Source of the DNA: Escherichia coli
GTDB lineage: Bacteria; Pseudomonadota; Gammaproteobacteria; Enterobacterales; Enterobacteriaceae
Direction: 5' to 3' (one strand)
Length of the DNA: 64,000 bases
Assembly: GCF_050320075.1 (NCBI RefSeq)
Contig: NZ_CP190018.1
The notes under the pieces are model-generated. The model made no database searches. It saw nothing but the letters and a program-made list of their open reading frames with translations, and had not been told where the DNA came from. How positions within the stretch are numbered: the stretch's first letter is position 1; each line of letters starts with the position of its first letter. The position numbers were made by a program, and so were the translations under genes. Shown in pieces: positions 3,651 through 62,623 of this stretch.

Positions 3651-3754
3651 TATTGGCTCCGTTTATCCGTTAAAAGGGATATCAGTTAAGTTATCCCGTG
3701 CAGGGTATAAGCCATTATCAAAGCCACTCTGTAGGGAATGGATTTTGTGATGGC

Positions 3755-3779
3755 AATAAAAAACCGCCCGTAGGCGGCA
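3755..3779 (-). terminator. Intrinsic terminator-like hairpin (GCCGCC-TACG-GGCGG followed by a U-run on the minus strand)
   Basis: Perfect GC-rich stem at 3764-3778 with an A-run on the plus strand (T-run on minus) at 3755-3762. Confidence 0.4.
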
Positions 3780-3890
3780 AAATTAATGTTTCGTAATTGC
3801 GTCAGATCATTAACCATAGTTATTGTGTAGCTGCTTTGTGTCGTTGGGGTGAACGACGAAAAAGCGAACAACATAATTAATGAGGTGACT

Positions 3891-4421
3891 ATGGAAGTCG
3901 AAAAAATGCTGGTCAAGGACCGGAAGTGTGGCTCTTGCTCAGTTTGCTGTGTTTCTTTGGCAATAGATGAGCCCGAATTGAAAAAAAAGCATGCGGTACC
4001 GTGTACCTATCTCAGGCCTCAGGGTGGTTGCTCGATCTATGCTGATCGACCGTCATTGTGCAAAACATGGCACTGCGGATGGCGGATGATGCCTTTCATG
4101 GGGCCTGCGTTAAGACCAGATCGGTCCAATCTCCTAGTGCGCTTCACGGGAGAATGTTGGATTTTCGGTGATGCTGACGACCAAAGGGAATCTGCATTAA
4201 TGAATAATGATACTTTAAACGCAATGAGCGCTCTGGTCTCGCGTAATATGAAAGTTTCAGTATCAGTTCCAACTAAGCCGGGTTATTGCGACGCTGAACA
4301 TGTCATCAATGATGATATTATGGAGGCGGTAAAAGAACGGTCTTTGTCAAAAGTTAAAGAAATAATTTGGACAGTAATTTGCCGGTGCAAAGTCTCCGCG
4401 ACCAACCCGCGAAAGCAATAA
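3891..4421 (+). CDS. YkgJ-like CxxCxxCC cysteine-cluster protein (putative Zn/Fe-binding), moron on the strand opposite the late genes
   Basis: ORF 3849-4421; preferred start is ATG 3891 preceded by GAGGTG; motif CGSCSVCC plus further Cys residues; opposite orientation to the flanking late operon. Confidence 0.6.
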   Translation: MEVEKMLVKDRKCGSCSVCCVSLAIDEPELKKKHAVPCTYLRPQGGCSIYADRPSLCKTWHCGWRMMPFMGPALRPDRSNLLVRFTGECWIFGDADDQRESALMNNDTLNAMSALVSRNMKVSVSVPTKPGYCDAEHVINDDIMEAVKERSLSKVKEIIWTVICRCKVSATNPRKQ

Positions 4422-4430
4422 ATTAAGCTG

Positions 4431-4460
4431 AACGCCAAATTTATCCGAAATTTGGCGTTA
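4431..4460. terminator. Bidirectional terminator-like hairpin between convergent genes
   Basis: Perfect 12-bp inverted repeat AACGCCAAATTT / AAATTTGGCGTT directly after the stop of 3891-4421 (+) and the stop of 4458-4646 (-). Confidence 0.4.
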
Positions 4461-4646
4461 CATTAATTCAAATGTCGGCATAGCCAACCAATCATCTGGT
4501 AAGCATGTGTTTTCGACAGACTGCATTAACCGCTCATCACTTCGACATGTGAAAGTTTCTTTGTGACCGAGCGAGCCCTGTGAAGAATTAGGGCAATCCA
4601 TATCTTCACCTGTTTTTTTCACTAGAGCGTTATTAATCTCAATCAT
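4458..4646 (-). CDS. Hypothetical small Cys-containing protein (62 aa)
   Basis: ORF ends at the convergent hairpin; no recognisable family. Confidence 0.3.
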   Translation of the reverse strand: MIEINNALVKKTGEDMDCPNSSQGSLGHKETFTCRSDERLMQSVENTCLPDDWLAMPTFELM

Positions 4647-4871
4647 TGTGAGTTCCAGACCTCAGACTAATTAATTTCAACCCCACTATTGCGAGGCTAA
4701 ATCCTGGTATTTGTAATGACTGGCTCTTATCTCAACGCAGCCCCTTACCGCGCGCAAGATGCTCAATATCAAGCATCAGCAATGAGATGTTTAATCTGGA
4801 TTCACTCCAGAAGTGATCACCACCCTGTCTACAGAGCCAGATGTGAAGGATGATGAGTAAAATTATCGCTA

Positions 4872-7925: not shown

Positions 7926-8212
7926 GACTTAATCTTCCCCTCCTTCAGCAGTATCGCCTGCGTCCTGATAACGCCTTCGAGGTGGTAAAGTCTGGTGTCT
8001 TTGTTGTCGAGGTTATGGGTGCGTCGGTCGATTTCATCGTGACACGCGCTACAAGCCCATGCGCCGATCAGGTCGTCAGGCTTCATTCCCGTTCCGCAAA
8101 TTCCAGCCATCCGGTAATGTGCCAGAACTGTAGTTTCAGGATTGCCATTGCATATGCCGTAAATACGTACCTGGCATTCTCTGCCGCGCGCTTCTTTGCG
8201 TAGATTAGCCAT
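7922..8212 (-). CDS. YbcO-like DUF1364 protein (Cys-rich, putative nuclease)
   Basis: 96 aa; ARGRECQVRIYGICNGNPETTVLAHYR...CSACHDEIDRRTH resembles DLP12 YbcO. Confidence 0.7.
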   Translation of the reverse strand: MANLRKEARGRECQVRIYGICNGNPETTVLAHYRMAGICGTGMKPDDLIGAWACSACHDEIDRRTHNLDNKDTRLYHLEGVIRTQAILLKEGKIKS

Positions 8213-8934
8213 TAAGCAGCCTCACCTGTTACTTTCAGCATTCCGTTATCGAGCAGCTTTCTGGTCAGCCACTGTTGACCACGCCCGGTGATTTTTGTGG
8301 TGAACGATATCTGTATTCCGTGATTTGTGTTGACCGCTGTTTCTTTCACTGTGAAATAGCCGCGATCCATATATTCCTGCATTGGCACATTGCGCCGGGA
8401 ACCTGAAGCAATAAGGATTTTGTGATCGCGCATCCACGCAAACAGTTTGTTTGGACCAATACCGACAACTTTTGCAAAGTTTCCAATCAAAATTCCGCTG
8501 GCCTCGCCAACGCGATCGGCAAACTCAACTTTAGGTGCGGCAATTGCGAGCTGGTTTTCCAGTTGCATTTTCTGCTCAGCAAGATCAGCAGCAAGGCGCA
8601 ACGCTTCTGGTAGCGTTTTGGGGATATTAACCGCAGCTTCTTCAAGCTCTCGCCAACGGTCAACAAGGCGAGCGGTGAACTCTGGCGACAACTGGGCAAC
8701 AACGACAATACTATCTCGCTTACCTTGTTCGCCTTCGAAGACGTAATGCTCGTACTGAACATTGAACCCTAAGTTATTGATTCTTTCGAAAACCTCAATT
8801 TGAGGAAGCCGGATAACACCATTTTTAGCCAGCGTTTCGATGGTACGCTTCACATTGTCATGACGCTTACCAACCAACTCAGCGATTTCAATGCTTGTCA
8901 TTTTGATGGCATTGCCATTTATTAACTCATTCAT
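8212..8934 (-). CDS. Phage regulatory protein Rha / antirepressor-like (KilA-C type C-terminus)
   Basis: 240 aa; N-terminal Rha-like region and C-terminal antirepressor-like domain by motif recall. Confidence 0.65.
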   Translation of the reverse strand: MNELINGNAIKMTSIEIAELVGKRHDNVKRTIETLAKNGVIRLPQIEVFERINNLGFNVQYEHYVFEGEQGKRDSIVVVAQLSPEFTARLVDRWRELEEAAVNIPKTLPEALRLAADLAEQKMQLENQLAIAAPKVEFADRVGEASGILIGNFAKVVGIGPNKLFAWMRDHKILIASGSRRNVPMQEYMDRGYFTVKETAVNTNHGIQISFTTKITGRGQQWLTRKLLDNGMLKVTGEAA

Positions 8935-14205: not shown

Positions 14206-14865
14206 ATGAAAATGAAATGGTATGAACTGGCTAGATCCAGAATGAAAGAGCTCGGCATAACTCAAGAGAAGTTAGCTGAAGAGCTTGGTATGACGCAGGG
14301 TGGAATTGGTCACTGGTTGCGCGGATCTCGTCATCCATCTCTTGACGAGATTGGTGTGGTGTTTAAATACCTTGGTATTGATAACGTCTCATTCAACCAC
14401 GACGGTACATTTTCACCTGTTGGCGAATACTCATCTGCCCCCGTTAAAAAACAATATGAGTACCCTGTTTTTTCTCATGTTCAGGCCGGGATGTTCTCGC
14501 CTGAGCTTAGAACCTTTACCAAAGGTGATGCGGAGAGATGGGTCAGCACAACCAAAAAAGCCAGTGATTGTGCGTTCTGGCTTGAAGTTGAAGGTAATTC
14601 CATGACCGCGCCAACAGGATCCAAGCCAAGCTTTCCTGACGGGATGTTAATTCTCGTTGACCCTGAGCAGGCTGTTGAGCCAGGTGATTTCTGCATAGCC
14701 AGACTTGGTGGTGACGAGTTTACCTTCAAGAAGCTGATCAGGGATAGCGGGCAGGTGTTCCTACAGCCACTAAACCCGCAATATCCAATGATTCCATGCA
14801 ATGATAGCTGTTCCGTAGTAGGGAAAGTTATCGCCAGCCAGTGGCCTGAAGAGACATTTAGTTAA
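14206..14865 (+). CDS. cI: CI repressor (LexA-like S24 autocleaving); lambda-type C-terminal domain with a different N-terminal DNA-binding domain
   Basis: C-terminal [26 protein letters not shown]...[17 protein letters not shown]... near-identical to lambda CI; N-terminal HTH differs; divergent from cro. Confidence 0.9.
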
Positions 14866-18648: not shown

Positions 18649-19728
18649 ATGAGCACTATCACTAAAGAACGTATCGAATTGTTCATTAAATCCCCGCTTG
18701 AAAACGGGCTTACCCGTGGCGAACAAATGGAACTGGCACGAATTGCACTGGCATCACTGGAACGCGAACAGATTCGCCACGAGCATGCCAAATGGTCTGA
18801 CTCCACATTTGGCTGCGTTGGCCCCATTGGTCCACTGAAACACCTCTCAAAAGAGGCACTGGAAGCCGCAGCCGAACCAGACGATCTTAGCGAGTGGGCT
18901 GATATGCAGTTTCTGTTGTGGGATGCACAGCGCCGTGCTGGCATCAGCGATGCTGAAATTACCGCTGCTATGGAAGATAAATTGAAGATCAACATGGAGC
19001 GCCAGTGGCCTGAACCAAAAGATGGTGAGCCTCGCTTGCACATTAAAGAACCCGGCAACTCTCCGGTAATTCCGGATGGTTTATCCACGGTATGCGCTGA
19101 GGCTTATCAGGTTGTAGGAGTTATGGCAGATGCGCTTGGTGTATTCGGTGATGCAGCAGTACAGAAAGTTCTGGATAACCTGTCACAGCAAAAACTTGTT
19201 CACAGAGATGTGCTGCCGTTCTCGCTTCCGGTGACTCCGGATGGTTGGATAAGCTGTAGTGAGCGAATGCCTGTAATTGGCGAGCTAAATTGGAGAACTA
19301 GTTTTCCTTTACTGGTTACGTGTGAGATCGGCGTTATACCTGCTTATTACGGCTTTGTGAGCGTTAATGGTGATAGGCATTATGGCTTTATGGAGAGTCT
19401 TAAATACGGAGACGATAACGGCAACCATCCTCAAACTAATGAATATGGTCTGATTAGCAATGTCACACACTGGATGCCACTACCAGAACGCCGCAGGAGT
19501 CGAACAGTGAATAATGCAGAGTTATTTCAGAAAATTTCGGCTCTCGCGACTGAATGCCACGCTATAGCATCTGAGCTTGATGTTGGCGATGAACGAACCG
19601 AGATGTTCGAAATATACAGTGTGCTGCGCAATCTCTGTCGGCGTGGCTACGCCACTCAAGTAGGGCGAATGACTAACCCACTACTCTCATTCTGTGATGA
19701 GGATGACTCGGATGAGGATGACGAATGA
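18649..19728 (+). CDS. Two-domain early accessory protein with DUF551-like C-terminal region
   Basis: 359 aa; W-x-S-x-S-E-R-x-P motif (WISCSERMP); acidic C-terminus. Confidence 0.55.
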   Translation: MSTITKERIELFIKSPLENGLTRGEQMELARIALASLEREQIRHEHAKWSDSTFGCVGPIGPLKHLSKEALEAAAEPDDLSEWADMQFLLWDAQRRAGISDAEITAAMEDKLKINMERQWPEPKDGEPRLHIKEPGNSPVIPDGLSTVCAEAYQVVGVMADALGVFGDAAVQKVLDNLSQQKLVHRDVLPFSLPVTPDGWISCSERMPVIGELNWRTSFPLLVTCEIGVIPAYYGFVSVNGDRHYGFMESLKYGDDNGNHPQTNEYGLISNVTHWMPLPERRRSRTVNNAELFQKISALATECHAIASELDVGDERTEMFEIYSVLRNLCRRGYATQVGRMTNPLLSFCDEDDSDEDDE

Positions 19729-20108
19729 TGCATAAATCAGTAGCCGGTGAGTTTCAGAAGGAAGTCGATAATACCACTGATCTATTGGACGATATTTTAA
19801 GCATTCTCGCGCTGCTTGAGGCTGGCGATTGGTCAGAACATTGCACTAAAACAGAGCTAGGCGGTCGGCTTGAAAGAGAGATTACACGACTGATTAGCGA
19901 TGCCCAAAATGATTTGTCACCTGAGCATCTCCCCTGCGATGTAGTTCTTGTGCCAGGGATGAGGATACACGAAGGCGTCAGAACGAAAACATTATTAACC
20001 GCATTACAGAGGAGAGCCGAACTAAGCTCGCGGATAAAGTTGATGCCATCCAAAATATTTGATGTCGTCAAATTTACGCCATCGCAACATACTGAGAGAG
20101 ATAAATGA
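19725..20108 (+). CDS. Hypothetical early accessory protein
   Basis: 127 aa; 4-nt overlaps with neighbours. Confidence 0.5.
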   Translation: MMHKSVAGEFQKEVDNTTDLLDDILSILALLEAGDWSEHCTKTELGGRLEREITRLISDAQNDLSPEHLPCDVVLVPGMRIHEGVRTKTLLTALQRRAELSSRIKLMPSKIFDVVKFTPSQHTERDK

Positions 20109-20731
20109 GCACGGTAGCGAACGATCTCACAGAAGATATTCTCAATGAAATTATTGCTGGTGCAAATACCTCGCTTGAGCAACTTCTTGCGTTAGCACTG
20201 AGAGCCGAACGTCGAGACAGAAATCGTTTTTATGAGCGATTACCAGGGAAGCGACCAGATAGATCGGATGAAGAAGGTTGCGATATAGACTACATGGAGC
20301 CTTCAGAGATTTATCAACTTGGTAAAGATGACGGCTGGAACGCTTATCACGATGCTGTGATGAAGTTGGATGAAAAAGTTAAACCTCTTTCTCGACCGGT
20401 AGATCACGGTTTCCGCGATAACTGCGAATGCTCTAGTTGCCAGACCACGACCCGTATTTGTTCCGAATTGACAGATAAGTCCAGCCTAATCTACGAAGTT
20501 AATGTAGGCGGTAATACATGGGTCGAATGCACAAGAGCTGCATACGTAAGAGCAAAAGACAAGGGTGAATTAACCAGAGTTGTTACCAATCACCCAAATA
20601 ATGAGCTTAAAGATCACCAGATTCGAGAACTGGTGAACGAGTTGAGAGATATTGCGGTTCAGTACCACGGAACGCAGCAATTGCGGGAGAAGATTGCCAG
20701 AGCAGTGAACAACTCAGTCCGTAAAAAATAA
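20105..20731 (+). CDS. Hypothetical early accessory protein (Cys cluster CECSSCQ)
   Basis: 208 aa ORF; last gene before the ORF-free gap. Confidence 0.55.
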   Translation: MSTVANDLTEDILNEIIAGANTSLEQLLALALRAERRDRNRFYERLPGKRPDRSDEEGCDIDYMEPSEIYQLGKDDGWNAYHDAVMKLDEKVKPLSRPVDHGFRDNCECSSCQTTTRICSELTDKSSLIYEVNVGGNTWVECTRAAYVRAKDKGELTRVVTNHPNNELKDHQIRELVNELRDIAVQYHGTQQLREKIARAVNNSVRKK

Positions 20732-20748
20732 GCAATAGTACGATAAAG

Positions 20749-20773
20749 AGGCCCCATGCTCTTGATGGGGCCT
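20749..20773 (-). terminator. Intrinsic terminator for the small peptide gene
   Basis: 9-bp stem AGGCCCCAT/ATGGGGCCT with 7-nt loop, 14 nt after the peptide stop; on the minus strand followed by CTCTTTATCG...TTATTTTTTAC. Confidence 0.45.
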
Positions 20774-20786
20774 GTAGCAACTAGCG

Positions 20787-20870
20787 TTATGGACGCTGGT
20801 TTACGTACTCAATGATCGCTTTGATAATCGCGAACATCGGCGGCACGATTTTGAACAGTAAGTTAACCAT
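20787..20870 (-). CDS. Candidate type I toxin: 27-aa hydrophobic peptide MVNLLFKIVPPMFAIIKAIIEYVNQRP
   Basis: ATG 20870 preceded by GAGG at -8; stop 20787-20789; terminator follows; not in ORF track (below size cutoff). Confidence 0.4.
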   Translation of the reverse strand: MVNLLFKIVPPMFAIIKAIIEYVNQRP

Positions 20871-21117
20871 AACAGGCCTCACTTAGTTTTATCGCGCCTA
20901 GCTGCAAATACCTTTGGGCTTGCCTTTGCAGTTGCAATATCTGTAGTCGCCAGATACTTACGGCACGATTTCGAGTTAAGGTAAGGTTTTAGAGTCACCA
21001 AAAACCTGGACTTAAATCTTCTTTGAGAACAACGATGTTTAGTAAATGGTCATTATTACCTGGTATGACCACTCAACGTTTCTTGATGAATCCAGTACAT
21101 TCGGTTAATCTTAATTC

Positions 21118-21201
21118 AGTCGCCAGATACTTATGGCTCAGGAACAGAGCCGCAAACTCTGTTTCCTTTTAAAAAGCCCAGCCTAGTCAACTGGGCTTTT
21201 T
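21118..21201 (+). ncRNA. Candidate antitoxin sRNA with 5' seed complementary to the peptide mRNA leader
   Basis: Promoter-like TTGATG (21083-21088), 17 bp, TAATCT (21106-21111); 5' AGUCGCCAGAUACUUAUGG pairs with the leader copy at 20945-20963; internal hairpin; intrinsic terminator AGCCCAG...CTGGGCT + T-run at 21171-21201. Confidence 0.4.
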
Positions 21202-21496
21202 AATGTCTATTTTTAACCCAATGAACCTTCAATACCGTAACATCAGTGTCTTGCGAATTAAGATAGTGTGTATAGGTTATGCATGCAAGTACATAACTCT
21301 GTGGATAACTCAGGAAGGAAAAAGTAGCTCCCGCGCAATTTAGGCCAGACAAGGCTTTCGCAAAAGTCAACAGAGAGAAAAAATTTGTTAAAAATAACGT
21401 TTGTTGGAATTGTATATATTTATGCCTTTCAATAGTTAGCATCTTATTAACATCTTTTTTAAGAGATAGAGTTCAAAAATATATAGCTTCAACATA

Positions 21497-21516
21497 TACT
21501 GTATGTGTATACAGTA
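21497..21516 (+). promoter_or_regulatory. LexA (SOS) box TACTGTATGTGTATACAGTA upstream of the humD-like gene
   Basis: Perfect CTGT-N8-ACAG palindrome about 17 bp upstream of ATG 21533. Confidence 0.75.
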
Positions 21517-21532
21517 TTAAGAGGCGAGTATT

Positions 21533-21922
21533 ATGGGCTTCCCTTCTCCTGCGGCGGATTATGCTGAGAGCCGTATTTCTCTTGATCAGCAGATAATTAG
21601 ACATCCTTCAGCGACCTACTTCATGAGGGCAGCTGATAGTCATCATCGTGAGGGAATATTACAGGGTGCATTGCTGGTGGTCGATTCCTCACTTACCCCG
21701 GTTGATGGTTCTCTGCTTGTATGCGCTCTGGATGGGGAATATCGCGTAAAAAGATACCGGAAGTATCCACGTCAGCATCTGGAGGATTTAAGAACCGGTA
21801 AGAAGGAAGCATTGCCAAAGGATGACGATGGATGCACGGGCAGCAATGCCGTGTTTGGTGTGATCACTCACATTATCAACGACGCAAGAAGTGGCGAGTT
21901 TGATGATTGTCCCGTGATGTAG
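21533..21922 (+). CDS. UmuD/HumD-like S24 peptidase (translesion synthesis accessory)
   Basis: 129 aa; UmuD-like sequence; SOS box upstream; no umuC partner in the window. Confidence 0.75.
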   Translation: MGFPSPAADYAESRISLDQQIIRHPSATYFMRAADSHHREGILQGALLVVDSSLTPVDGSLLVCALDGEYRVKRYRKYPRQHLEDLRTGKKEALPKDDDGCTGSNAVFGVITHIINDARSGEFDDCPVM

Positions 21923-22227
21923 GAGAACTGATTAGGCGGTGCAATGCACCGCCTTTTTATCACACTGCGCGGAATGCGATTTCGCCAGGTATTACTTCAC
22001 CTTGCCAATACATTTGGACAGCAGACTTTCGGCGATGCGTTGCACTTGTTGAGCAGATTCCAGAAATCAGAGATTCATTCGACAAGGTTGCAAAGCGCGT
22101 TCCGGCATTCAAAGGAATCCTCAACGAATGGGATTCCCTCGTTGATCTGTTGAAGTCTGAAATGAAGATACACGGAAACAAAGCACCAGAGACTTACAGA
22201 AGAATTAGCGAGTTACGCAAGGACTAA
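21907..22227 (+). CDS. Hypothetical protein downstream of the humD-like gene
   Basis: 106 aa ORF overlapping the humD end; no recognisable motif. Confidence 0.35.
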   Translation: MSRDVGELIRRCNAPPFYHTARNAISPGITSPCQYIWTADFRRCVALVEQIPEIRDSFDKVAKRVPAFKGILNEWDSLVDLLKSEMKIHGNKAPETYRRISELRKD

Positions 22228-22317
22228 CCACAGCCTCATACTCGATGAGGCCTGTTCATTGCTCAATGATATCCAGACCTACCGCAATAATACCAATCCA
22301 ATAAATGGAGATTCCAG

Positions 22318-22665
22318 GTGGAAGAAGAAATCTTCACTCGTGAAGAGGCAGCGTCGTATCTGAAGGTAGACAAAGGCACTATCACGCAGTGGATACGAAG
22401 TGGACGACTTCAGGCCGCAAAGATAAATCCAGATAAACCTAAAAGCCCATATCGCATTTGCAAGTCAGACTGCATTGCGGCGCTTAAGTCTGTGAGACAC
22501 AATAGCGCGGTGAATGCGGTTGATGTGCAGGAGGTTAAAGCATGTCAATCAAACTACGCGGTGGCACGTGGCACTGCGATTTCGTCGCGCCAGATGGATC
22601 AAGAGTTAGACGCTCTCTTGAAACATCGGACAAAAGGCAAGCGCAAGAACTTCACGATCGTCTGA
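22318..22665 (+). CDS. xis: Excisionase (Xis), P22-like; 3' end uncertain
   Basis: Immediately upstream of int; ORF overlaps the int start by about 120 nt. Confidence 0.55.
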   Translation: MEEEIFTREEAASYLKVDKGTITQWIRSGRLQAAKINPDKPKSPYRICKSDCIAALKSVRHNSAVNAVDVQEVKACQSNYAVARGTAISSRQMDQELDALLKHRTKGKRKNFTIV

Positions 22666-23702
22666 AAGCAGAAGCGTGGAGAGTAAAAAATCTCGGGGAA
22701 TCACCGAAAAAGCTATTCAAGGAAGCCTGCATACGGTGGCTGCGTGAGAAATCGGATAAGAAGTCCATTGATGATGACAAGAGCATTATATCGTTCTGGA
22801 TGTTGCACTTCAGAGAAGCCATTCTCTCTGACATAACAACAGAAAAAATAATGGAGGCGGTAGATGGGATGGAAAACCGCCGCCATCGCCTGAACTGGGA
22901 GATGAGCCGGGACAGGTGTTTGCGACTTGGCAATCCGGTGCCGGAGTATAAACCAAAGCTTGCAAGCAAAGGAACGAAGACGAGGCATCTGGCAATACTT
23001 CGCGCCATTCTCAATATGGCTGTTGAATGGGGATGGCTTGACAGGGCACCCAAAATATCAACACCACGCGTTAAGAATGGACGCATCAGATGGCTTACAG
23101 AGGAGGAATCGAAGCGCCTGTTTGCAGAAATTGCTCCTCACTTCTTCCCTGTGGTCATGTTTGCAATCACGACAGGCCTTCGCCGTTCCAACGTTACAGA
23201 CCTTGAGTGGTCACAGGTCGATCTGGATAAGAAAATGGCATGGATACACCCTGATGAAACAAAAGCTGGCAATGCGATCGGAGTTCCTCTTAACGAAACC
23301 GCATGCCAGATATTAAGAAAACAGCAGGGGCTCCATAAGAGATGGGTATTTGTCCACACCAAACCTGCCTACCGAAGCGACGGAACAAAAACAGCAGCGG
23401 TAAGGAAGATGAGAACCGACAGCAACAAGGCATGGAAGGGAGCGTTAAAGCGGGCAGGCATTAGTAACTTCCGCTTCCATGATCTGAGGCATACCTGGGC
23501 AAGCTGGCTGGTTCAGTCCGGTGTCTCTCTTCTTGCACTTAAAGAGATGGGAGGATGGGAAACTCTCGAAATGGTTCAAAGATACGCCCACCTTTCAGCC
23601 GGGCATCTCACCGAGCACGCAAGCAAAATCGATGCGATTATAAGTCGCAATGGCACAAATACGGCACAAGAGGAGAACGTGGTGTATTTAAATATGGGGT
23701 AA
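22542..23702 (+). CDS. int: Tyrosine integrase, P22-type, thrW-specific
   Basis: 386 aa; aligns from the N-terminus with remembered P22 Int; catalytic HDLRHTWASWLVQ...YAHL motif; adjacent to tRNA-Thr. Confidence 0.9.
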   Translation: MSIKLRGGTWHCDFVAPDGSRVRRSLETSDKRQAQELHDRLKAEAWRVKNLGESPKKLFKEACIRWLREKSDKKSIDDDKSIISFWMLHFREAILSDITTEKIMEAVDGMENRRHRLNWEMSRDRCLRLGNPVPEYKPKLASKGTKTRHLAILRAILNMAVEWGWLDRAPKISTPRVKNGRIRWLTEEESKRLFAEIAPHFFPVVMFAITTGLRRSNVTDLEWSQVDLDKKMAWIHPDETKAGNAIGVPLNETACQILRKQQGLHKRWVFVHTKPAYRSDGTKTAAVRKMRTDSNKAWKGALKRAGISNFRFHDLRHTWASWLVQSGVSLLALKEMGGWETLEMVQRYAHLSAGHLTEHASKIDAIISRNGTNTAQEENVVYLNMG

Positions 23703-23716
23703 CTACTTGATTTAAA

Positions 23717-23792
23717 TGGTGCCGATAATAGGAGTCGAACCTACGACCTTCGCATTACGAATGCGCTGCTCTACCAACTGAGCTATATCGGC
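23717..23792 (-). tRNA. thrW: tRNA-Thr (anticodon CGU)
   Basis: 76-nt minus-strand sequence GCCGATATAGCTCAGTTGGTAGAGCAGCGCATTCGTAATGCG...CGGCACCA with cloverleaf. Confidence 0.95.
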
Positions 23793-23906
23793 CCTGAAAG
23801 GACATGTTCACGAACGTGAATCACGGTGGACAAGGTTAAAACTAACCGGGCGATGCGTCAATGGCCTTGTGAATCAAATGGCTACTTTTGCATCACCCGG
23901 TTTTAT

Positions 23907-25160
23907 TTACGCACGAATGGTGTAATCACCAATGCCGATCCACTTGTAAGTGGTCAGTGCTTCCAGCCCCATTGGGCCACGCGCGTGGAGTTTTTGTGTG
24001 CTTACCGCCACTTCCGCACCCAGACCAAACTGGCCGCCATCGGTAAAACGCGTAGAGGCGTTAACGTAAACAGCGGACGAATCCACTTCGTTAACAAAAC
24101 GCTGGGCGTTGCGCATATCGCGGGTCAGGATCGCATCGGAGTGTTGTGTGCCGTGTTCACGAATATGGGCGATGGCATCGTCAAGATCGCTGACGATTTT
24201 AACGTTCAAATCTAATGACAGAAACTCATCGTCATACTCTTCGGCTTTAACAGCCACCACCTTCGCGGGGCCTGCCTGCAACTGCGCCAGCGCAGCTACA
24301 TCTGCGTGTAATGCCACGCTGCTTTCCGCCATTTGCTTGCTTAATGCGGGCAGGAAGCTATCGGCGATGTTTTTATTTACCAGCAACGTTTCTACCGTAT
24401 TACATGTGCTCGGACGCTGAGTTTTTGCGTTGACGATTACTTTCAGGGCTTCAGCGATCTCTGCACTTTCATCAACGTAAATATGGCATACGCCTATACC
24501 GCCTGTGATCACCGGGATTGTCGACTGTTCGCGGCACAGCTTATGCAGGCCAGCGCCTCCACGCGGGATCAGCATGTCGATGTATTTATCCATACGCAGC
24601 ATTTCACTGACCAGCGCACGGTCAGGATTATCAATCGCCTGCACGGCACCCGCCGGTAAGCCGCAGGATTTCAGGGCGTCCTGAATCACCGCTACCGTTG
24701 CAGCGTTAGTGCGACAGGTTTCTTTGCCACCACGCAGGATCACCGCGTTACCGGTTTTCAGGCACAGCGAAGCGACATCAACCGTCACGTTCGGGCGCGC
24801 TTCATAAATCACGCCAATAACCCCCAGCGGTACGCGACGACGCTCAAGACGCAGGCCGCTGTCCAGTACGCCGCCATCGATTACCTGCCCCACCGGATCG
24901 GCGAGATTACACACCTGACGCACATCGTCGGCGATGCCTTTCAGCCGTGCGGGCGTCAGTGCCAGACGGTCAAGCATCGCTTCGCTAAGGCCATTGGCAC
25001 GCGCGTCAGCAACATCCTGGGCGTTAGCGTTGAGGATGATTTCGCTTTGTGCTTCCAGTTCATCGGCGATTTTTTCCAGCACGCGATTTTTTTCGCGGCT
25101 GGAGAGTTGCGCTAATTTATACGAGGCTTGCTTCGCGGCAATGCCCATTTGTTCCAGCAT
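23907..25160 (-). CDS. proA: Gamma-glutamyl phosphate reductase
   Basis: 417 aa; [19 protein letters not shown]... Confidence 0.95.
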
Positions 25161-28115: not shown

Positions 28116-29360
28116 TTAACACAATCGTTTTTCAATCCAGTCTGTTATTTCCTGAAGACCTTTGTCAAAATTCCGATACACCGGGTTAAATGGGATCTCT
28201 AACAATTTACCGTCAGCAGATGATGAGGTGATTAAGCGTGAGTCCTCTTCCGGGCTGAACGGATCGTTCTTCCAGTAGCCTGATAACATTGGCGTTGGGC
28301 AGCGACGTCCCAGCAATCCTTGCACTTTTAATGAATAGCGATTCAGCTCCACGCGCAACGCTTCGTCGGAAGCATCATGCATCCCCAAACGGCTCGCCAG
28401 AACGTCAAGATACATTTCCGGCACCTGTTGCTGGCACTTAAAATCACTCAACAGGGTATGAACTACCGGACCAAGACAGGCAACCGCTTTCAGACGCGGC
28501 GATTCAAGGTATGCCAGACGCACGGCAACGTTAGCGCCGAAACGGAAACCAAAGGCCGCGACGCGAGTGTGATCTACCCACGGTACGTTAGGCAGCGCCT
28601 TTAAGACGTGCTGATGCAACAGGCTGGAGTCCTGGGTGAGCTTCCATTTTGAAGAAAAGCCCACCGACGGCATATCAATAGTCAGCATCGCAATGCCGCG
28701 CGGCGCAAAATAACGTTCATACAGGCTGTAATAGTCCGTCTGCATCGCATCCAGACCACCACACATTAATACTGTCGGGAACGGGCCATCGCCTTTCGGC
28801 ATATGCAAAAAGCCGGTGATGGGCGCACCGCCGGGTACGGTAAACTCCATCTGCCGCATGGTGCCCGGCAGACGCTGAGCGGCCTCTTCATAGGCGCGGT
28901 TTGACAAAGCCTGCGCTTGCTCGGCCAGGTCATCTCCTTTCAGATGAGGATAGGCGGCAATGTTGTACAACGTAGCCGCATGCAGCCAGTGACGACCACT
29001 GAGTTGCGGATCTTCTTCCGCACAGGCTTTTTGTTGCCACACCATCGCCTGGGTGGCCCACTCATAAATCCAGTTGCCACCACGGTAGCCAATCACCGTA
29101 TCGTATAAATCATCGTCGGTACGTTCGGCATCGCTCATCACAATACGTGCCTGGACGTCGAGGATTTCACGTGGGTCAATGCCGCGCCAGATCCACATCA
29201 GACGGTTAATCATGCGATACCAGTGAGGGATGGTTTTACCATCAAGGGCCGACTGCACAGGCGGTTGTGCGCCGTGATTAAAGCGGCGGACTAGCGTCGA
29301 GGTTTCAGGATGTTTAAAGCGGGGTTTGAACAGGGTTTCGCTCAGGTTTGCCTGTGTCAT
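28116..29360 (-). CDS. frsA: Esterase FrsA
   Basis: 414 aa; alpha/beta hydrolase. Confidence 0.95.
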
Positions 29361-29451
29361 GGATGCAGCCTCCAGAATACTTACTGGAAACTATTGTAAC
29401 CCGCCTGAAGTTAAAAAGAACAACGCCCGGCAGTGCCAGGCGTTGAAAAGA

Positions 29452-29910
29452 TTAGCGACCGGAGATTGGCGGGACGAATACGACGCCCATATCCCACGGT
29501 TGTTCGATCCAGGTATCTTGCGGGATATCAACAACATAGTCATCAACCAGCGGACGACCAGCCGGTTTTGCGAAGATGGTGACAAAGTGCGCTTTTGGAT
29601 ACATTTCACGAATCGCAACCGCAGTGCCACCGGTATCCACCAGGTCATCAATAACGATGAAGCCTTCGCCATCGCCTTCTGCGCGTTTCAGCACTTTAAG
29701 CTCGCGCTGGTTGTCGTGATCGTAGCTGGAAATACAAACGGTATCGACATGACGAATACCCAGTTCACGCGCCAGTAACGCACCCGGTACCAGACCGCCA
29801 CGGCTTACGGCAATAATGCCTTTCCATTGTTCAGAAGGCATCAGTCGGCTTGCGAGTTTACGTGCATGGATCTGCAACATGTCCCAGGTGACGATGTATT
29901 TTTCGCTCAT
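29452..29910 (-). CDS. gpt: Xanthine-guanine phosphoribosyltransferase
   Basis: 152 aa; [23 protein letters not shown]... Confidence 0.95.
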
Positions 29911-30170
29911 GTGAAGTGTCCCAGCCTGTTTATCTACGGCTTAAAAAGTGTTCGAGGGGAAAATAGGTTGCGCGAGATTATAGAGATCTGGCGCACTAAA
30001 AACCAGTATTTCACATGAGTCCGCGTCTTTTTACGCACTGCCTCTCCCTGACGCGGGATAAAGTGGTATTCTCAAACATATCTCGCAAGCCTGTCTTGTG
30101 TTGACAACATTTTCTGCTAACCCTGTGACCTGCAATACTGTTTTGCGGGTGATCGACAAGGAGACTTAAC

Positions 30171-31628
30171 GTGTCTGAACTGTCTCAATTATCTCCACAG
30201 CCGCTGTGGGATATTTTTGCCAAAATCTGTTCTATTCCTCACCCGTCCTATCATGAAGAGCAACTCGCTGAATACATTGTTGGTTGGGCAAAAGAGAAAG
30301 GTTTCCATGTCGAACGCGATCAGGTAGGTAATATCCTGATTCGTAAACCTGCTACCGCAGGTATGGAAAATCGTAAACCGGTCGTCTTGCAGGCCCACCT
30401 CGATATGGTGCCACAGAAAAATAACGACACCGTGCATGACTTCACTAAAGATCCTATCCAGCCTTATATTGATGGCGAATGGGTTAAAGCGCGCGGCACC
30501 ACGCTGGGTGCGGATAACGGCATTGGTATGGCGTCTGCGCTGGCGGTTCTGGCTGACGAAAACGTGGTTCACGGCCCGCTGGAAGTGCTGCTGACCATGA
30601 CCGAAGAAGCCGGTATGGATGGTGCTTTTGGCTTACAGAGCAACTGGTTGCAGGCTGATATTCTGATTAACACCGACTCCGAAGAGGAAGGTGAAATCTA
30701 CATGGGTTGCGCGGGGGGTATCGACTTCACCTCCAACCTGCATTTAGATCGTGAAGCAGTTCCAGCTGGTTTTGAAACCTTCAAGTTAACCTTAAAAGGT
30801 CTAAAAGGCGGTCACTCCGGCGGTGAAATCCACGTTGGCCTGGGTAATGCCAACAAACTGCTGGTGCGCTTCCTGGCGGGTCATGCAGAAGAGCTGGACC
30901 TGCGCCTTATCGATTTCAACGGTGGCACACTGCGTAACGCCATCCCGCGTGAAGCCTTTGCGACCATTGCTGTCGCAGCTGATAAAGTCGACGCCCTGAA
31001 ATCTCTGGTGAATACCTATCAGGAAATCCTGAAAAACGAGCTGGCAGAGAAAGAGAAAAATCTGGCATTGCTGCTGGACTCTGTTGCGAACGATAAAGCT
31101 GCCCTGATTGCGAAATCTCGCGATACCTTTATTCGTCTGCTGAACGCCACCCCGAACGGTGTGATCCGCAACTCCGACGTGGCAAAAGGTGTGGTCGAAA
31201 CCTCCCTGAACGTCGGTGTGGTGACCATGACTGACAATAACGTAGAAATTCACTGCCTGATCCGTTCTCTGATCGACAGCGGTAAAGACTACGTGGTGAG
31301 CATGCTGGATTCGCTGGGTAAACTGGCTGGCGCGAAAACCGAAGCGAAAGGCGCATATCCTGGCTGGCAGCCGGACGCTAATTCTCCGGTGATGCATCTG
31401 GTACGTGAAACCTATCAGCGACTGTTCAACAAGACGCCGAACATCCAGATTATTCACGCGGGCCTGGAATGTGGTCTGTTTAAAAAACCGTATCCGGAAA
31501 TGGACATGGTTTCTATCGGGCCAACAATCACCGGTCCACACTCTCCGGATGAGCAAGTTCACATCGAAAGCGTAGGTCATTACTGGACACTGCTGACTGA
31601 ACTGCTGAAAGAAATTCCGGCGAAGTAA
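30171..31628 (+). CDS. pepD: Cytosol non-specific dipeptidase PepD
   Basis: 485 aa; M20 peptidase. Confidence 0.95.
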   Translation: MSELSQLSPQPLWDIFAKICSIPHPSYHEEQLAEYIVGWAKEKGFHVERDQVGNILIRKPATAGMENRKPVVLQAHLDMVPQKNNDTVHDFTKDPIQPYIDGEWVKARGTTLGADNGIGMASALAVLADENVVHGPLEVLLTMTEEAGMDGAFGLQSNWLQADILINTDSEEEGEIYMGCAGGIDFTSNLHLDREAVPAGFETFKLTLKGLKGGHSGGEIHVGLGNANKLLVRFLAGHAEELDLRLIDFNGGTLRNAIPREAFATIAVAADKVDALKSLVNTYQEILKNELAEKEKNLALLLDSVANDKAALIAKSRDTFIRLLNATPNGVIRNSDVAKGVVETSLNVGVVTMTDNNVEIHCLIRSLIDSGKDYVVSMLDSLGKLAGAKTEAKGAYPGWQPDANSPVMHLVRETYQRLFNKTPNIQIIHAGLECGLFKKPYPEMDMVSIGPTITGPHSPDEQVHIESVGHYWTLLTELLKEIPAK

Positions 31629-61342: not shown

Positions 61343-62623
61343 ATGCCGGAAGAGAAACTACAGACGCTTTCATTGCAGGTCATTAACGGCAGTGAGCTGG
61401 AAAGCGGGCGGGCGGCGCGCTGTCTGTTCACACAGCAGGGAAATGTCGGCCATGGCCCCGAATGCCACTGGTCGGTACAGGATCGTCAGCAGAGCATTCC
61501 GGCTCAGGCTTTTACCGTTATCCTGCACGATGGCACATTTTGTCTGCGCCCGCAGACGGCACAACTGTGGCTGAACCAGGCAAAAGTCACAGCAACATCA
61601 GACCTGATACAGCTGCGCCAGGGCGATGAGATCCAGATAGGGCGTCTGATGGTGAGGGTTCATCTGAACCGGGGAGATATCCCCCATTACGATGAGGAAA
61701 TGGCCACTCCCGAAACCATCGTCACCAATCGCGATATGCTCACGGATACCCTGCTGTCAACGGAGGGTGCGCCACACTATCCGGGAATGACTCACCGGCA
61801 TCAGCTTGCAGACACCGTGGTAAACGGTTTTTCTACCGATCCACTCCAGGCACTTCAGTCCGAAAGCCTGATTACCACGGGCGATCCGCTTTCAGGCATT
61901 GCGGCTGTCCGGCCATCGGCACCGCTGTCCGATCCGGCAAGTAATGGTGGGATCAATACTCCGTTTATGGATCTACCGCCCATTTATGCCAGCCCCGGCG
62001 ATCGTAATGATGACTTCCCTGTGGCAGAAATGGCGCAACGCCACCTTGCGGTCACCCCCTTACTGCGCGGTCTCGGCGGCTCGCTTACCGTGAGCAATTC
62101 TGACGATGCGGATGATTTTCTGGAAGAGGCCGGACGCACGTTACAGGCCGCAATAAAAGGTCTGCTCGATTTGCAGCAACAGCGTAACAGCCTCTCAGAC
62201 AAACATTTGCGCCCGCTGGAAGATAACCCGCTGCGCCTGAACATGGATTACGCCACCGCGCTCGACGTGATGTTTGCCGAAGGTAAAAGTCCGGTACATC
62301 TGGCGGCTCCCGCCGCTGTCAGTGAAAGCCTGCGTAATGTCCGCCACCACGAAGAAGCTAACCGGGCAGCGATTGTGGAGTCACTTCGTGTCCTGCTTGA
62401 CGCTTTCTCACCACAAAATCTGCTGCGCCGCTTTGTGCAGTACCGCCGCAGCCATGAACTGCGCCAGCCGCTGGATGATGCCGGAGCATGGCAAATGTAC
62501 AGCCATTATTACGAAGAACTGGCCTCCGATCGCCAGCAGGGGTTTGAGATGCTGTTTAACGAGGTCTACGCCCAGATCTATGACCGGGTGCTTCGTGAAA
62601 AACAGCGGGAGCCGGAAGCATGA
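61343..62623 (+). CDS. tagH: T6SS FHA-domain protein TagH
   Basis: N-terminal FHA-like region; start at ATG 61343 after GGAG (ORF track 61322). Confidence 0.8.
   Translation: MPEEKLQTLSLQVINGSELESGRAARCLFTQQGNVGHGPECHWSVQDRQQSIPAQAFTVILHDGTFCLRPQTAQLWLNQAKVTATSDLIQLRQGDEIQIGRLMVRVHLNRGDIPHYDEEMATPETIVTNRDMLTDTLLSTEGAPHYPGMTHRHQLADTVVNGFSTDPLQALQSESLITTGDPLSGIAAVRPSAPLSDPASNGGINTPFMDLPPIYASPGDRNDDFPVAEMAQRHLAVTPLLRGLGGSLTVSNSDDADDFLEEAGRTLQAAIKGLLDLQQQRNSLSDKHLRPLEDNPLRLNMDYATALDVMFAEGKSPVHLAAPAAVSESLRNVRHHEEANRAAIVESLRVLLDAFSPQNLLRRFVQYRRSHELRQPLDDAGAWQMYSHYYEELASDRQQGFEMLFNEVYAQIYDRVLREKQREPEA

What the first reader, a model, noticed from the sequence alone, without database searches (positions are those of the whole stretch)
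21497..22227. SOS-box-controlled stand-alone UmuD/HumD-like gene in the prophage next to int-xis
A perfect LexA box (TACTGTATGTGTATACAGTA) lies about 17 bp upstream of a 129-aa UmuD-like ORF with no umuC partner, followed by an unassigned 106-aa ORF. A prophage-borne, LexA-regulated UmuD' analogue could modulate host translesion synthesis during induction, as described for P1 HumD. It lies about 300 bp from the candidate type I TA module.
Basis: partly seen in the sequence, partly recalled or inferred. Interest (0 to 1): 0.45.

Follow-up and report, generated by a model that had tools for sequence, protein, structure and literature searches.

The report
SOS-controlled phage humD (UmuD′-like) gene
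This is an ordinary, already-catalogued phage gene (humD, a ready-made version of the bacterial mutagenesis protein UmuD′) with its own DNA-damage switch, copied from a phage-plasmid into a chromosomal prophage; the "second ORF" behind it is only debris from that insertion.

Summary
A LexA operator (21497-21516) lies 16 nt upstream of a 129-aa ORF (21533-21922). That ORF is a full-length member of the curated HumD family and 91.5-92% identical to phage P1 HumD. It starts Met-Gly at the position of UmuD Gly25, so it is a pre-cleaved UmuD′ analogue. No umuC is present in the 64-kb window.

The operator overlaps a −10-like hexamer, and a strong terminator follows the gene, so humD is a self-contained SOS-inducible moron. 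Boxes of the same type precede all 13 other stand-alone humD-like phage genes examined. The P1 and phiKO2 GenBank records already annotate theirs.

The encoded protein is identical to that of the SSU5-like phage-plasmid pECOH89. About 1.6 kb of DNA is near-identical to phage-plasmid Cyrano, ending 64 bp inside that element's apbC gene. The insertion cut an HK022-p30-like phage gene.

The "106-aa ORF" is therefore a chimera of the humD 3′ end, the terminator, antisense apbC sequence and a gene remnant. It is not a gene.

The catalytic-dyad refutation criterion is misconceived. One unremarked feature is a conserved EFDDCPVM C-terminal tail.

The parts
21472..21500 (+). sigma-70-like promoter of humD: −35 TTCAAA (21472-21477), 17-nt spacer, −10 TATACT (21495-21500)
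   Evidence: Consensus scan, 9 of 12 matches. The −10 overlaps the LexA box by 4 nt. The same TATACT is present in D6 and SJC33; P1 has the weaker TGTACT.
21497..21516 (.). LexA operator (SOS box) TACTGTATGTGTATACAGTA
   Evidence: Unique in the window, 0 of 100 shuffles. The half-site TACTGTAT is invariant in 9 aligned humD upstream regions whose flanks are otherwise dissimilar. A CTG-N10-CAG lies 16-46 nt upstream of 12 of the 13 other stand-alone humD-like genes examined; in HK140 it lies upstream of gp27-humD. The equivalent sites are annotated as LexA sites in P1 and phiKO2.
21519..21524 (+). Shine-Dalgarno AAGAGG, 8 nt before the ATG
   Evidence: Read directly from the sequence.
21533..21922 (+). 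humD: 129-aa pre-cleaved UmuD′ analogue (WP_000506720.1)
   Evidence: NCBIfam HumD equivalog 219.8 bits, full length. Pfam Peptidase_S24. PDB UmuD′ 1umu E=7e-23, Gly2 = UmuD Gly25. 91.5-92% aa identity to P1 HumD. dN/dS versus P1 = 0.055. AF2 model best matches UmuD′.
21934..21960 (+). intrinsic terminator of humD (9-bp G+C-rich stem, 3-nt loop, T-run)
   Evidence: Terminator scan. RNA fold −18.6 kcal/mol, z = −6.1. It lies inside the mechanical 106-aa ORF.
21960..22023 (-). remnant of the last ~20 codons of the phage-plasmid apbC (mrp/MinD-like) gene
   Evidence: The minus-strand translation ...AVQMYWQGEVIPGEIAFRAV* matches the C-terminus of Cyrano ApbC ...AAQMYWQGEVIPGEIAFRAV*. Near-identity to Cyrano stops at about 22024.
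22021..22227 (+). 3′ remnant (69 codons) of an HK022-p30 / mEp213-gp26-like phage gene, truncated by the humD insertion
   Evidence: 97% identity to residues 46-114 of mEp213 gp26. PGAP: pseudogene, missing N-terminus.
   Evidence: It has a TTG start inside humD and runs through the humD terminator and antisense apbC remnant into the truncated p30-like frame. No Pfam or NCBIfam hit.
20395..22024 (+). block ~99.5% identical to SSU5-like phage-plasmids (Cyrano/pECOH89 group): 3′ end of an ea-region gene, 800-bp non-coding region, humD, terminator, apbC remnant
   Evidence: Pairwise alignments. pECOH89 encodes the identical HumD protein.

Best explanation
What it is: humD, a phage gene for a ready-made UmuD′ analogue, carried as a self-contained SOS-inducible moron (promoter, LexA operator, gene, terminator). 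It lies at the distal end of the early-left (pL) region of a P22-like/lambdoid prophage integrated at thrW.

How it most likely works, in order:
- In an undamaged lysogen, host LexA sits on the operator. The operator overlaps the −10 hexamer and the predicted transcription start, and keeps humD off (inferred from anatomy and comparative conservation).
- DNA damage activates RecA*, LexA cleaves itself, and humD is transcribed.
- During lytic growth, N-antiterminated pL transcription in the same orientation should also read through humD (inferred).
- HumD starts at the residue equivalent to UmuD Gly25, so it needs no slow RecA*-mediated self-cleavage.
- It is expected to dimerise and join host UmuC and RecA to form a Pol V-like translesion polymerase. 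This gives earlier or extra lesion bypass, and mutagenesis, on damaged host and phage DNA. This step is taken from experiments on P1 HumD, which is 92% identical; it was not tested here.

How it got here: it moved from an SSU5-like phage-plasmid. There was homologous exchange on the left, in shared ea-type genes, and an illegitimate junction on the right. The right junction left 64 bp of the plasmid's apbC gene and truncated a resident HK022-p30-like gene.
For: Family membership:
- HumD equivalog 219.8 bits against a cutoff of 120, full length.
- 91.5-92% aa identity to P1 HumD.
- UmuD′ alignment from Gly25, and the UmuD′ fold as best PDB match.

Selection: dN/dS 0.055 versus P1 and 0.076 versus D6.

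Regulation:
- The box is unique in the window.
- The −35/−10 overlaps the box.
- The same box type is found upstream of all 13 other stand-alone homologues examined, from Escherichia, Klebsiella, Salmonella, Aeromonas, Hafnia and Pantoea phages, although the flanking sequence is unrelated.
- It is annotated as a LexA site in P1 and phiKO2.
- The box-to-ATG geometry resembles umuDC.

Moron structure: terminators upstream (21180-21197) and downstream (21934-21954).

Partner availability: umuC is present in 5422 of 5426 complete E. coli genomes and absent from the window.

Origin:
- About 99.5% identity to Cyrano up to 22024.
- apbC remnant.
- Identical protein in pECOH89, an SSU5-related phage-like plasmid (PMC3999498).
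- Truncated p30-like gene.

Function of P1 HumD (complements UmuD′, dimerises, binds UmuC and RecA filaments): McLenigan et al. 1999, J Bacteriol 181:7005. It is cited in PMC7092418 and PMC4713147. I could not open the paper itself, so the details are from my own knowledge.
Against: - No experiment here shows LexA binding, SOS induction or an effect on mutagenesis for this allele or this prophage.
- As I recall, P1 HumD was reported to be poorly expressed and to complement well only from a high-copy plasmid. The physiological contribution may therefore be small.
- The presence of umuC in this particular host genome was inferred from its near-universality, not checked directly.
- The −35 hexamer is weak (TTCAAA).
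- The family has a strongly conserved C-terminal tail that UmuD′ lacks. This hints at an activity beyond simple UmuD′ replacement.
Confidence: 0.8

Rival explanations
1. HumD's main role is not translesion synthesis. Instead it modulates RecA* filaments or the SOS/induction decision. Examples: competing with the prophage's own S24-type CI repressor or with LexA/UmuD for the RecA* groove, inhibiting recombination as UmuD′2C does, or titrating host UmuD into heterodimers. This would tune when the prophage induces.
For: - The prophage repressor is itself a LexA-family S24 protein (14212-14865).
- humD-like genes sit next to dinI, a RecA-filament binder, in HK140 and phiKO2 and share the LexA site with it.
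- UmuD binds in the RecA filament groove (PDB 8gmt, among the best structural matches).
- The family-specific conserved tail is unexplained by a pure UmuD′ role.
Against: - P1 HumD (92% identical) functionally replaces UmuD′ in mutagenesis (literature, my knowledge).
- Nothing in the sequence distinguishes a RecA-modulating role from a Pol V role.
- No experimental support exists for any phage.
Confidence: 0.12
2. In this prophage the gene is a passenger. It arrived by a recent recombination with a phage-plasmid, is intact only because the event is recent, and contributes nothing measurable to phage or host.
For: - The junction is rare: 4 of 5426 genomes.
- The DNA is about 99.5% identical to the plasmid copy, so there has been little time for decay.
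- humD-like genes in other lambdoid or P22-like phages have decayed: BTP1 and Huey carry in-frame stops, and mEp234 and Stx2 phages keep only fragments.
Against: - Family-wide purifying selection (dN/dS about 0.05).
- Conserved LexA control in every lineage examined.
- Promoter, SD, ORF and terminator are all intact here.
Confidence: 0.08
3. The LexA box chiefly serves a divergent (minus-strand) transcript. This is how the P1 annotation reads: the site is assigned to lxr as well as humD, and a PhumD promoter is predicted far upstream. On this view, repression of humD is incidental.
For: - The P1 record reads 'LexA binding site in the regulatory region of lxr and humD', with the predicted PhumD about 440 bp upstream of the box.
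- phiKO2 and HK140 have a divergent dinI at the same site.
- The upstream 800 bp of the window is non-coding but highly conserved and holds small-RNA-like elements.
Against: - No minus-strand promoter-like site was found near the box.
- The only minus-strand ORF there (80 aa, 21442..21200) has no similarity to Lxr or to any Pfam/NCBIfam family, and PGAP does not call it.
- A plus-strand −10 overlaps the box.
Confidence: 0.07
4. The 106-aa ORF is a real second gene, co-transcribed with humD.
For: An open frame of 106 codons overlaps the end of humD by 16 nt.
Against: - It has a TTG start with no Shine-Dalgarno sequence.
- It must be read through a −18.6 kcal/mol terminator.
- Its first 37 codons are the humD 3′ end, the terminator and antisense apbC sequence.
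- The rest is 97% identical to the C-terminal 69 residues of a 114-aa phage protein.
- PGAP flags it as a truncated pseudogene.
- No family hit.
Confidence: 0.02

Closest known systems
Bacteriophage P1 HumD (AAQ14073; McLenigan et al. 1999; Lobocka et al. 2004 annotation AF234172)
   Same: - 129 aa, 91.5-92% identical.
- Starts MGFPSPAADY at UmuD Gly25.
- No umuC partner.
- LexA box 19 nt upstream in P1, 16 nt here.
- Same C-terminal tail GEFDDCPV(I/M).
   Different: - P1 humD lies in a plasmid prophage between lxr/hot and phd-doc. Here it lies in an integrated P22-like/lambdoid prophage between ea-type genes and xis-int.
- The upstream DNA is unrelated apart from the box.
- The −10-like hexamer is closer to consensus here (TATACT versus TGTACT).
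- There is no lxr or hot neighbour.
humD of SSU5-like phage-plasmids (pECOH89, phage Cyrano)
   Same: - Identical protein, WP_000506720.1.
- About 99.5% identical DNA from about 20395 to 22024, including the promoter, LexA box, terminator and the upstream 800-bp non-coding region.
   Different: In the phage-plasmids humD is convergent with a complete apbC followed by metG. Here only the last 64 bp of apbC remain, fused to a truncated lambdoid gene.
Stand-alone UmuD′-like genes of N15 (gp26), phiKO2 (gp23), HK140, HK639
   Same: - Same family: 64-73% identity, MGFPSP start, EFDD tail.
- LexA box upstream.
- In the integrating phages (HK140, HK639) they lie at a prophage end near int/attP.
   Different: - In HK140 and HK639 they lie on the tail-fibre side of attP/int; in the linear plasmid prophages N15 and phiKO2 they lie between tail genes and sopB/parB, sometimes paired with dinI. 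They are not in the early-left operon next to xis.
- The Ser60 equivalent is replaced by Thr in all four, and the Lys97 equivalent by Met in HK639.
E. coli UmuD/UmuD′ (Pol V accessory subunit; PDB 1umu, 1ay9, 8gmt)
   Same: - S24 fold; 44% identity over the UmuD′ part.
- Ser60/Lys97 equivalents present (Ser36, Lys73).
- LexA operator of equal consensus match at similar distance from the ATG.
   Different: - No 24-residue N-terminal arm and no Cys-Gly cleavage site.
- No downstream umuC.
- The GDSM motif is degraded to A-DSH.
- A longer loop at about residues 86-105 and a 10-residue (about 11 aa) C-terminal extension absent from UmuD.

Membership tests
HumD family (NCBIfam NF051876, 'HumD family translesion DNA polymerase') | Scores above the curated equivalog cutoff over the full length | tested here: met
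   219.8 bits versus cutoff 120, residues 1-129 on profile positions 1-129.
HumD family | Protein begins at the residue equivalent to UmuD Gly25 (UmuD′ size; no N-terminal arm or Cys-Gly site) | tested here: met
   Met1-Gly2; Gly2 aligns with UmuD Gly25 / UmuD′ residue 1. 105 of 120 family representatives start the same way.
HumD family | Not in an operon with a umuC-type polymerase gene | tested here: met
   A terminator follows the gene. No umuC is annotated anywhere in the 64-kb window.
HumD family | LexA operator in the upstream regulatory region | tested here: met
   Box at 21497-21516. The equivalent site is annotated in P1 and phiKO2. A box is present in all 13 other homologous loci examined. 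Actual LexA binding was not tested.
HumD family | Functionally replaces UmuD′ (dimerises, binds UmuC and RecA*, restores SOS mutagenesis) | not testable with these tools
   Known only for P1 HumD (McLenigan 1999, cited). Inferred here from 92% identity.
Peptidase S24 / UmuD-LexA superfamily | S24 β-barrel fold | tested here: met
   Pfam PF00717 E=1.6e-9. AF2 model (pLDDT 73, core 83-89) has UmuD′ and LexA C-terminal domains as best PDB matches.
Peptidase S24 / UmuD-LexA superfamily | Ser/Lys catalytic dyad within GDSM...K motifs | tested here: inconclusive
   Ser36 and Lys73 align with UmuD Ser60 and Lys97, but GDSM is A-DSH with a one-residue deletion. The dyad is lost in several family members, so it is probably vestigial. 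Activity cannot be judged from sequence.
dinQ-agrAB type I toxin-antitoxin (considered for the neighbouring 20787-21204 region) | Sequence or structure homology to AgrA/AgrB RNAs; LexA box before the toxin gene | tested here: not met
   The Rfam AgrB hit is only 27.6 bits (gathering score 40, E=0.12). No alignment to K-12 agrA/agrB. No second LexA box in the region.

The most novel reading that the evidence does not exclude
HumD may be more than a pre-cleaved UmuD′. The whole family carries a nearly invariant, flexible C-terminal tail, (S/N)-(G/A)-E-F-D-D-C-P-V-(M/I/L). UmuD, UmuD′ and a phage umuD that has a umuC partner all lack it.

The tail resembles the acidic C-terminal tip of SSB (…D-F-D-D-D-I-P-F). 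It might act as an SSB-tail mimic, or as another docking peptide, and connect the phage protein to host replisome or repair factors.

On this reading, SOS-induced HumD would redirect or compete for SSB-interacting proteins in addition to, or instead of, arming UmuC.
Probability: 0.1. Interest if true: 0.55.

Novelty: already known. Interest (0 to 1): 0.15.

Why it matters
The main result is a clean negative for novelty. The gene, its pre-cleaved design and its LexA control are textbook features of P1 and N15-type phages, and current pipelines already name the family.

Three smaller points remain:
- Transfer between element types. The locus documents gene flow from an SSU5-like phage-plasmid into an integrated P22-like/lambdoid prophage. 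The direction can be read from a 64-bp apbC scar. The P1/SSU5-type humD allele found by DNA search is in 14% of complete E. coli genomes, almost always on phage-plasmids.
- Lysogenic conversion. An SOS-inducible, cleavage-independent UmuD′ could raise damage-induced mutagenesis in lysogens, which bears on stress-induced evolution and antibiotic resistance. That remains to be measured at native expression.
- The tail. The conserved EFDDCPVM tail is an untested handle on what HumD does beyond mimicking UmuD′.

Tried and rejected
- Rfam, permissive scan of 19500-24000. Only tRNA-Thr passed. AgrB (27.6 bits, E 0.12) and RNAI (E 0.38) were below threshold.
- dinQ/agrAB homology for the upstream small-RNA/small-ORF region. 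No alignment to K-12 agrA/agrB. Rejected as a family member.
- P1 lxr homologue on the minus strand upstream of the box. None found.
- Pfam and NCBIfam on the four small ORFs of 20787-21442. No hits.
- The 106-aa ORF as a gene. Rejected.
- Other LexA boxes in the window. None within 3 mismatches. One CTGT-N8-ACAG at 61420, in the T6SS region, is within chance expectation.
- Primary papers. McLenigan 1999 (PMC94175) and Lobocka 2004 (PMC523184) are not held. An unfiltered 'HumD' text search was swamped by unrelated words.
- Local BLAST of the loci. It failed because most locus files were not yet present in the sandbox. Replaced by MAFFT alignments.
- Lewis-type heterology index for the box. Not computed, because I do not hold the reference matrix. 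Mismatch counts and the umuDC operator were used instead.
- umuC in this exact host genome. Not located. I relied on 5422 of 5426 genomes having it.
Full report
**Context**

The window is E. coli chromosome, 100% identical over the 1-kb query to strain SB0258h1. Positions 1 to about 23800 are the right part of a P22-like/lambdoid prophage. From left to right it carries:
- portal, terminase and lysis genes;
- Q, the nin region and replication genes;
- cII, cro and an S24-type CI;
- N, erf, abc and ea-type genes;
- xis and int.

The prophage is integrated at tRNA-Thr thrW, next to proA and proB. The early-left operon, humD, xis and int are all on the + strand.

Yes.
- TACTGTATGTGTATACAGTA occurs once, at 21497-21516, with none in 100 shuffles. 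It is the only site in 64 kb within three mismatches of TACTG(TA)5CAGTA.
- It differs from that consensus at two central positions, so "perfect" overstates it. Its two 8-bp arms and the CTGT-N8-ACAG core are perfect. The host umuDC operator TACTGTATATAAAAACAGTA, read from MG1655, also has two mismatches.
- Sixteen nucleotides downstream, after an AAGAGG ribosome-binding site, starts a 129-codon ORF at 21533-21922.
- A promoter-like TTCAAA-17-TATACT ends at 21500, so the box covers the −10 hexamer and the predicted start site.
- A 9-bp G+C-rich hairpin with a T-run follows the stop codon (21934-21954; −18.6 kcal/mol, z = −6.1).
- Another terminator (21180-21197) lies upstream.

The unit is therefore promoter, operator, gene and terminator: a classic moron.

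**What the protein is**

- Against NCBIfam it matches the HumD equivalog NF051876 end to end, at 219.8 bits against a cutoff of 120. The UmuD subfamily model stays below its cutoff.
- Pfam gives Peptidase_S24.
- Against PDB sequences the best hits are UmuD′ and UmuD (1umu, E = 7e-23). Query Gly2 aligns to the first residue of UmuD′, which is UmuD Gly25.
- An AlphaFold2 model built on 40 homologues has mean pLDDT 73, with the core at 83-89. Its top PDB matches are UmuD′ and UmuD, followed by LexA and λ CI C-terminal domains.
- tblastn against phage genomes gives 91.5-92% identity to HumD of P1 and P7, 93% to RCS47, 91% to D6, 71% to phiKO2 gp23, 68% to N15 gp26 and 64-66% to HK639 and HK140.
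- Ser36 and Lys73 align with the UmuD catalytic Ser60 and Lys97. The GDSM motif is degraded to A-DSH.
- In N15, phiKO2, HK140 and HK639 the Ser is replaced (Thr); in the Aeromonas, Hafnia and Pantoea homologues both it and the Lys are replaced; in HK639 the Lys is Met. That is the pattern expected for a protein that no longer has to cleave itself.
- Nei-Gojobori dN/dS is 0.055 against P1 and 0.076 against D6, so the gene is under strong purifying selection.

**Is LexA control more than a chance motif?**

I collected 13 other loci with stand-alone humD-like genes:
- Cyrano and the SJC33 prophage;
- P1 and D6;
- BTP1;
- phiKO2 and N15;
- HK639, HK140 and Huey;
- Aeromonas pAEv1818, Hafnia yong1 and Pantoea G19.

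Every one has a CTG-N10-CAG. In 12 of them it lies 16-46 nt upstream of the start codon. In HK140 it lies upstream of a small gene that precedes humD.

In an alignment of nine upstream regions, TACTGTAT is the only invariant block outside the coding sequence. The flanks are unrelated.

A given 60-bp stretch should hold such a motif with probability of roughly 1-2%. The sites in P1 ("LexA binding site in the regulatory region of lxr and humD") and phiKO2 are already annotated in GenBank. LexA regulation is therefore well supported comparatively, although binding was not tested for this allele.

**Partner**

No umuC is annotated anywhere in the window. The only Y-family polymerase gene is host dinB, about 8.6 kb to the right of humD. 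umuC itself is present in 5422 of 5426 complete E. coli genomes, so a host partner is almost certainly available.

**Origin and the "106-aa ORF"**

- The encoded protein, WP_000506720.1, is the same accession as in pECOH89. pECOH89 is a phage-like plasmid related to Salmonella phage SSU5 (PMC3999498).
- Window 20395-22024 is about 99.5% identical to phage-plasmid Cyrano. There are further mosaic identity patches back to about 19240, in ea-type genes.
- In the phage-plasmids humD is convergent with a complete apbC, followed by metG.
- In the window, identity stops 64 bp into the 3′ end of apbC. The minus strand still encodes …AVQMYWQGEVIPGEIAFRAV*, against Cyrano ApbC …AAQMYWQGEVIPGEIAFRAV*.
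- From 22019 onward the DNA is ordinary lambdoid sequence, 95-97% identical to mEp213, mEp043 and HK022.
- Residues 38-106 of the "106-aa ORF" are 97% identical to residues 46-114 of mEp213 gp26, an HK022 p30-like protein.

The ORF is therefore a fortuitous open frame. It starts at a TTG inside humD and runs through the terminator and the antisense apbC scar into a decapitated phage gene. PGAP flags only 22021-22227, as a pseudogene.

The apbC scar gives the direction of the right-hand junction: phage-plasmid to prophage. The left side could have been resolved by homologous exchange in shared ea genes.

This exact junction is present in only 4 of 5426 genomes. In one of them, SJC33, the cassette sits behind a phage θ (hot) gene and in front of torI, that is, in a different lambdoid prophage.

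The P1/SSU5-type humD allele detected by DNA search occurs in 764 of 5426 genomes. Of the 802 places, 690 are on plasmids and 112 on chromosomes, and several of the chromosomal places are partial. In PLSDB, 657 plasmids match, most of them non-mobilizable.

The wider protein family has at least 561 clusters at 90% identity across Escherichia, Citrobacter, Klebsiella, Salmonella, Enterobacter, Kluyvera and Trabulsiella. Many of them are already named "HumD family translesion DNA polymerase".

**Mechanism**

Shown here:
- family membership;
- the pre-cleaved N-terminus;
- stand-alone status;
- the operator-over-promoter architecture;
- comparative conservation of the operator;
- purifying selection;
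- the origin of the cassette.

Inferred:
- LexA represses the gene in the lysogen.
- SOS induction derepresses it, and pL read-through expresses it during lytic growth.
- HumD dimers join host UmuC and RecA to give Pol V-like translesion synthesis, without the delay imposed by UmuD cleavage.

The last step rests on the P1 HumD experiments (McLenigan et al. 1999). I could only cite these second-hand and from memory.

**Rivals**

- A RecA*/induction-modulating role.
- A functionless recent passenger. This is supported by decayed copies in BTP1, Huey, mEp234 and Stx2 phages.
- A box that mainly serves a divergent transcript, as the P1 annotation suggests for lxr. No minus-strand promoter or Lxr homologue was found.

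**Unremarked feature**

All stand-alone family members end in a conserved tail, …ARSGEFDDCPVM.
- The [ED][FWY]DD motif near the C-terminus is present in 109 of 120 representatives.
- It is conserved even at 45-49% identity in Aeromonas and Hafnia phages.
- It is absent from UmuD, from a phage umuD that has a umuC partner (vB_SosS_Oslo), and from the Pantoea G19 homologue.
- AlphaFold gives it low confidence, consistent with a flexible peptide.
- It resembles the acidic tip of SSB (DFDDDIPF, from memory).

This is a lead, not a result.

**Verdict**

However, the gene, its design and its regulation are already known and already annotated. The novelty is limited to a rare insertion context, the direction-revealing apbC scar and the debunking of the second ORF. 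Interest is low.

Noticed in passing
window 20787-21204: Candidate small toxin / antisense-RNA module upstream of humD.
- A 31-aa hydrophobic ORF lies on the minus strand (20882..20787, MRPVMVNLLFKIVPPMFAIIKAIIEYVNQRP) with its own terminator (20773-20749).
- On the plus strand there are two 20-nt direct repeats AGTCGCCAGATACTTAYGGC (20945, 21118).
- A 14-nt repeat is shared between the ORF (20841) and repeat unit 1 (20961). A plus-strand RNA from unit 1 would therefore pair in trans with the ORF mRNA.
- 21105-21206 folds at −34 kcal/mol (z −5.1) and ends in a terminator.
- There is no Rfam, Pfam or NCBIfam membership, no homology to dinQ-agrAB and no LexA box.
- The region is 99.6% conserved in the SSU5-like phage-plasmid Cyrano.
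   Followed up: partly
window 21881-21919 (HumD residues 117-129): A family-specific C-terminal tail …DARSGEFDDCPVM is nearly invariant across HumD-like proteins (109 of 120 representatives, plus Aeromonas and Hafnia phages). It is absent from UmuD/UmuD′ and has low pLDDT in the model. It resembles the SSB C-terminal tip DFDDDIPF. Its function is unknown.
   Followed up: partly
window 21960-22023 (minus strand): A 64-bp scar of the phage-plasmid apbC (mrp) gene. The SSU5-like phage-plasmids (Cyrano, pECOH89) carry a complete apbC-metG pair; these two genes are neighbours on the E. coli chromosome, so the pair may represent an earlier capture of host DNA by the phage-plasmid.
   Followed up: partly
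L008 (Lederbergvirus BTP1) 1501-1873; L013 (phage Huey) 1201-1590: The humD-like genes of BTP1 and Huey carry in-frame stop codons (BTP1 at codon 29; Huey at two positions). mEp234, Sf101 and Stx2 phages keep only C-terminal fragments. humD therefore decays repeatedly in lambdoid and P22-like phages.
   Followed up: partly
L004 (E. coli SJC33 prophage) 3652-4696: A second lambdoid prophage carries hot (Pol III θ homologue) directly upstream of humD, as in P1 and D6, followed by the same apbC/p30 junction and then torI. Its humD allele is P1-like for the first ~135 nt and identical to the window allele afterwards, so it is an intragenic recombinant.
   Followed up: partly
window 18649-19728: A 359-aa ORF combines a dATP/dGTP pyrophosphohydrolase domain (PF04447) with DUF551. 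PGAP splits it into a short pseudogene and a shorter CDS, with different start choices in two identical genomes.
   Followed up: no
window ~28950-31220: The host dinB-yafN-yafO-yafP operon (Pol IV plus a toxin-antitoxin pair) lies about 8.6 kb to the right of humD, so two SOS-controlled translesion functions are close on the chromosome. This is probably coincidental, since thrW is a common integration site.
   Followed up: no
window ~43660-64000: A type VI secretion cluster (hcp, vgrG, tssB-K, tagH) with a frameshifted RHS core protein gene and an ISEc1 copy beside it.
   Followed up: no
window 8212-8934 (minus strand): A KilAC-domain antirepressor gene lies inside the nin region of the prophage. 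No LexA box is associated with it; humD has the only SOS box in the window.
   Followed up: no
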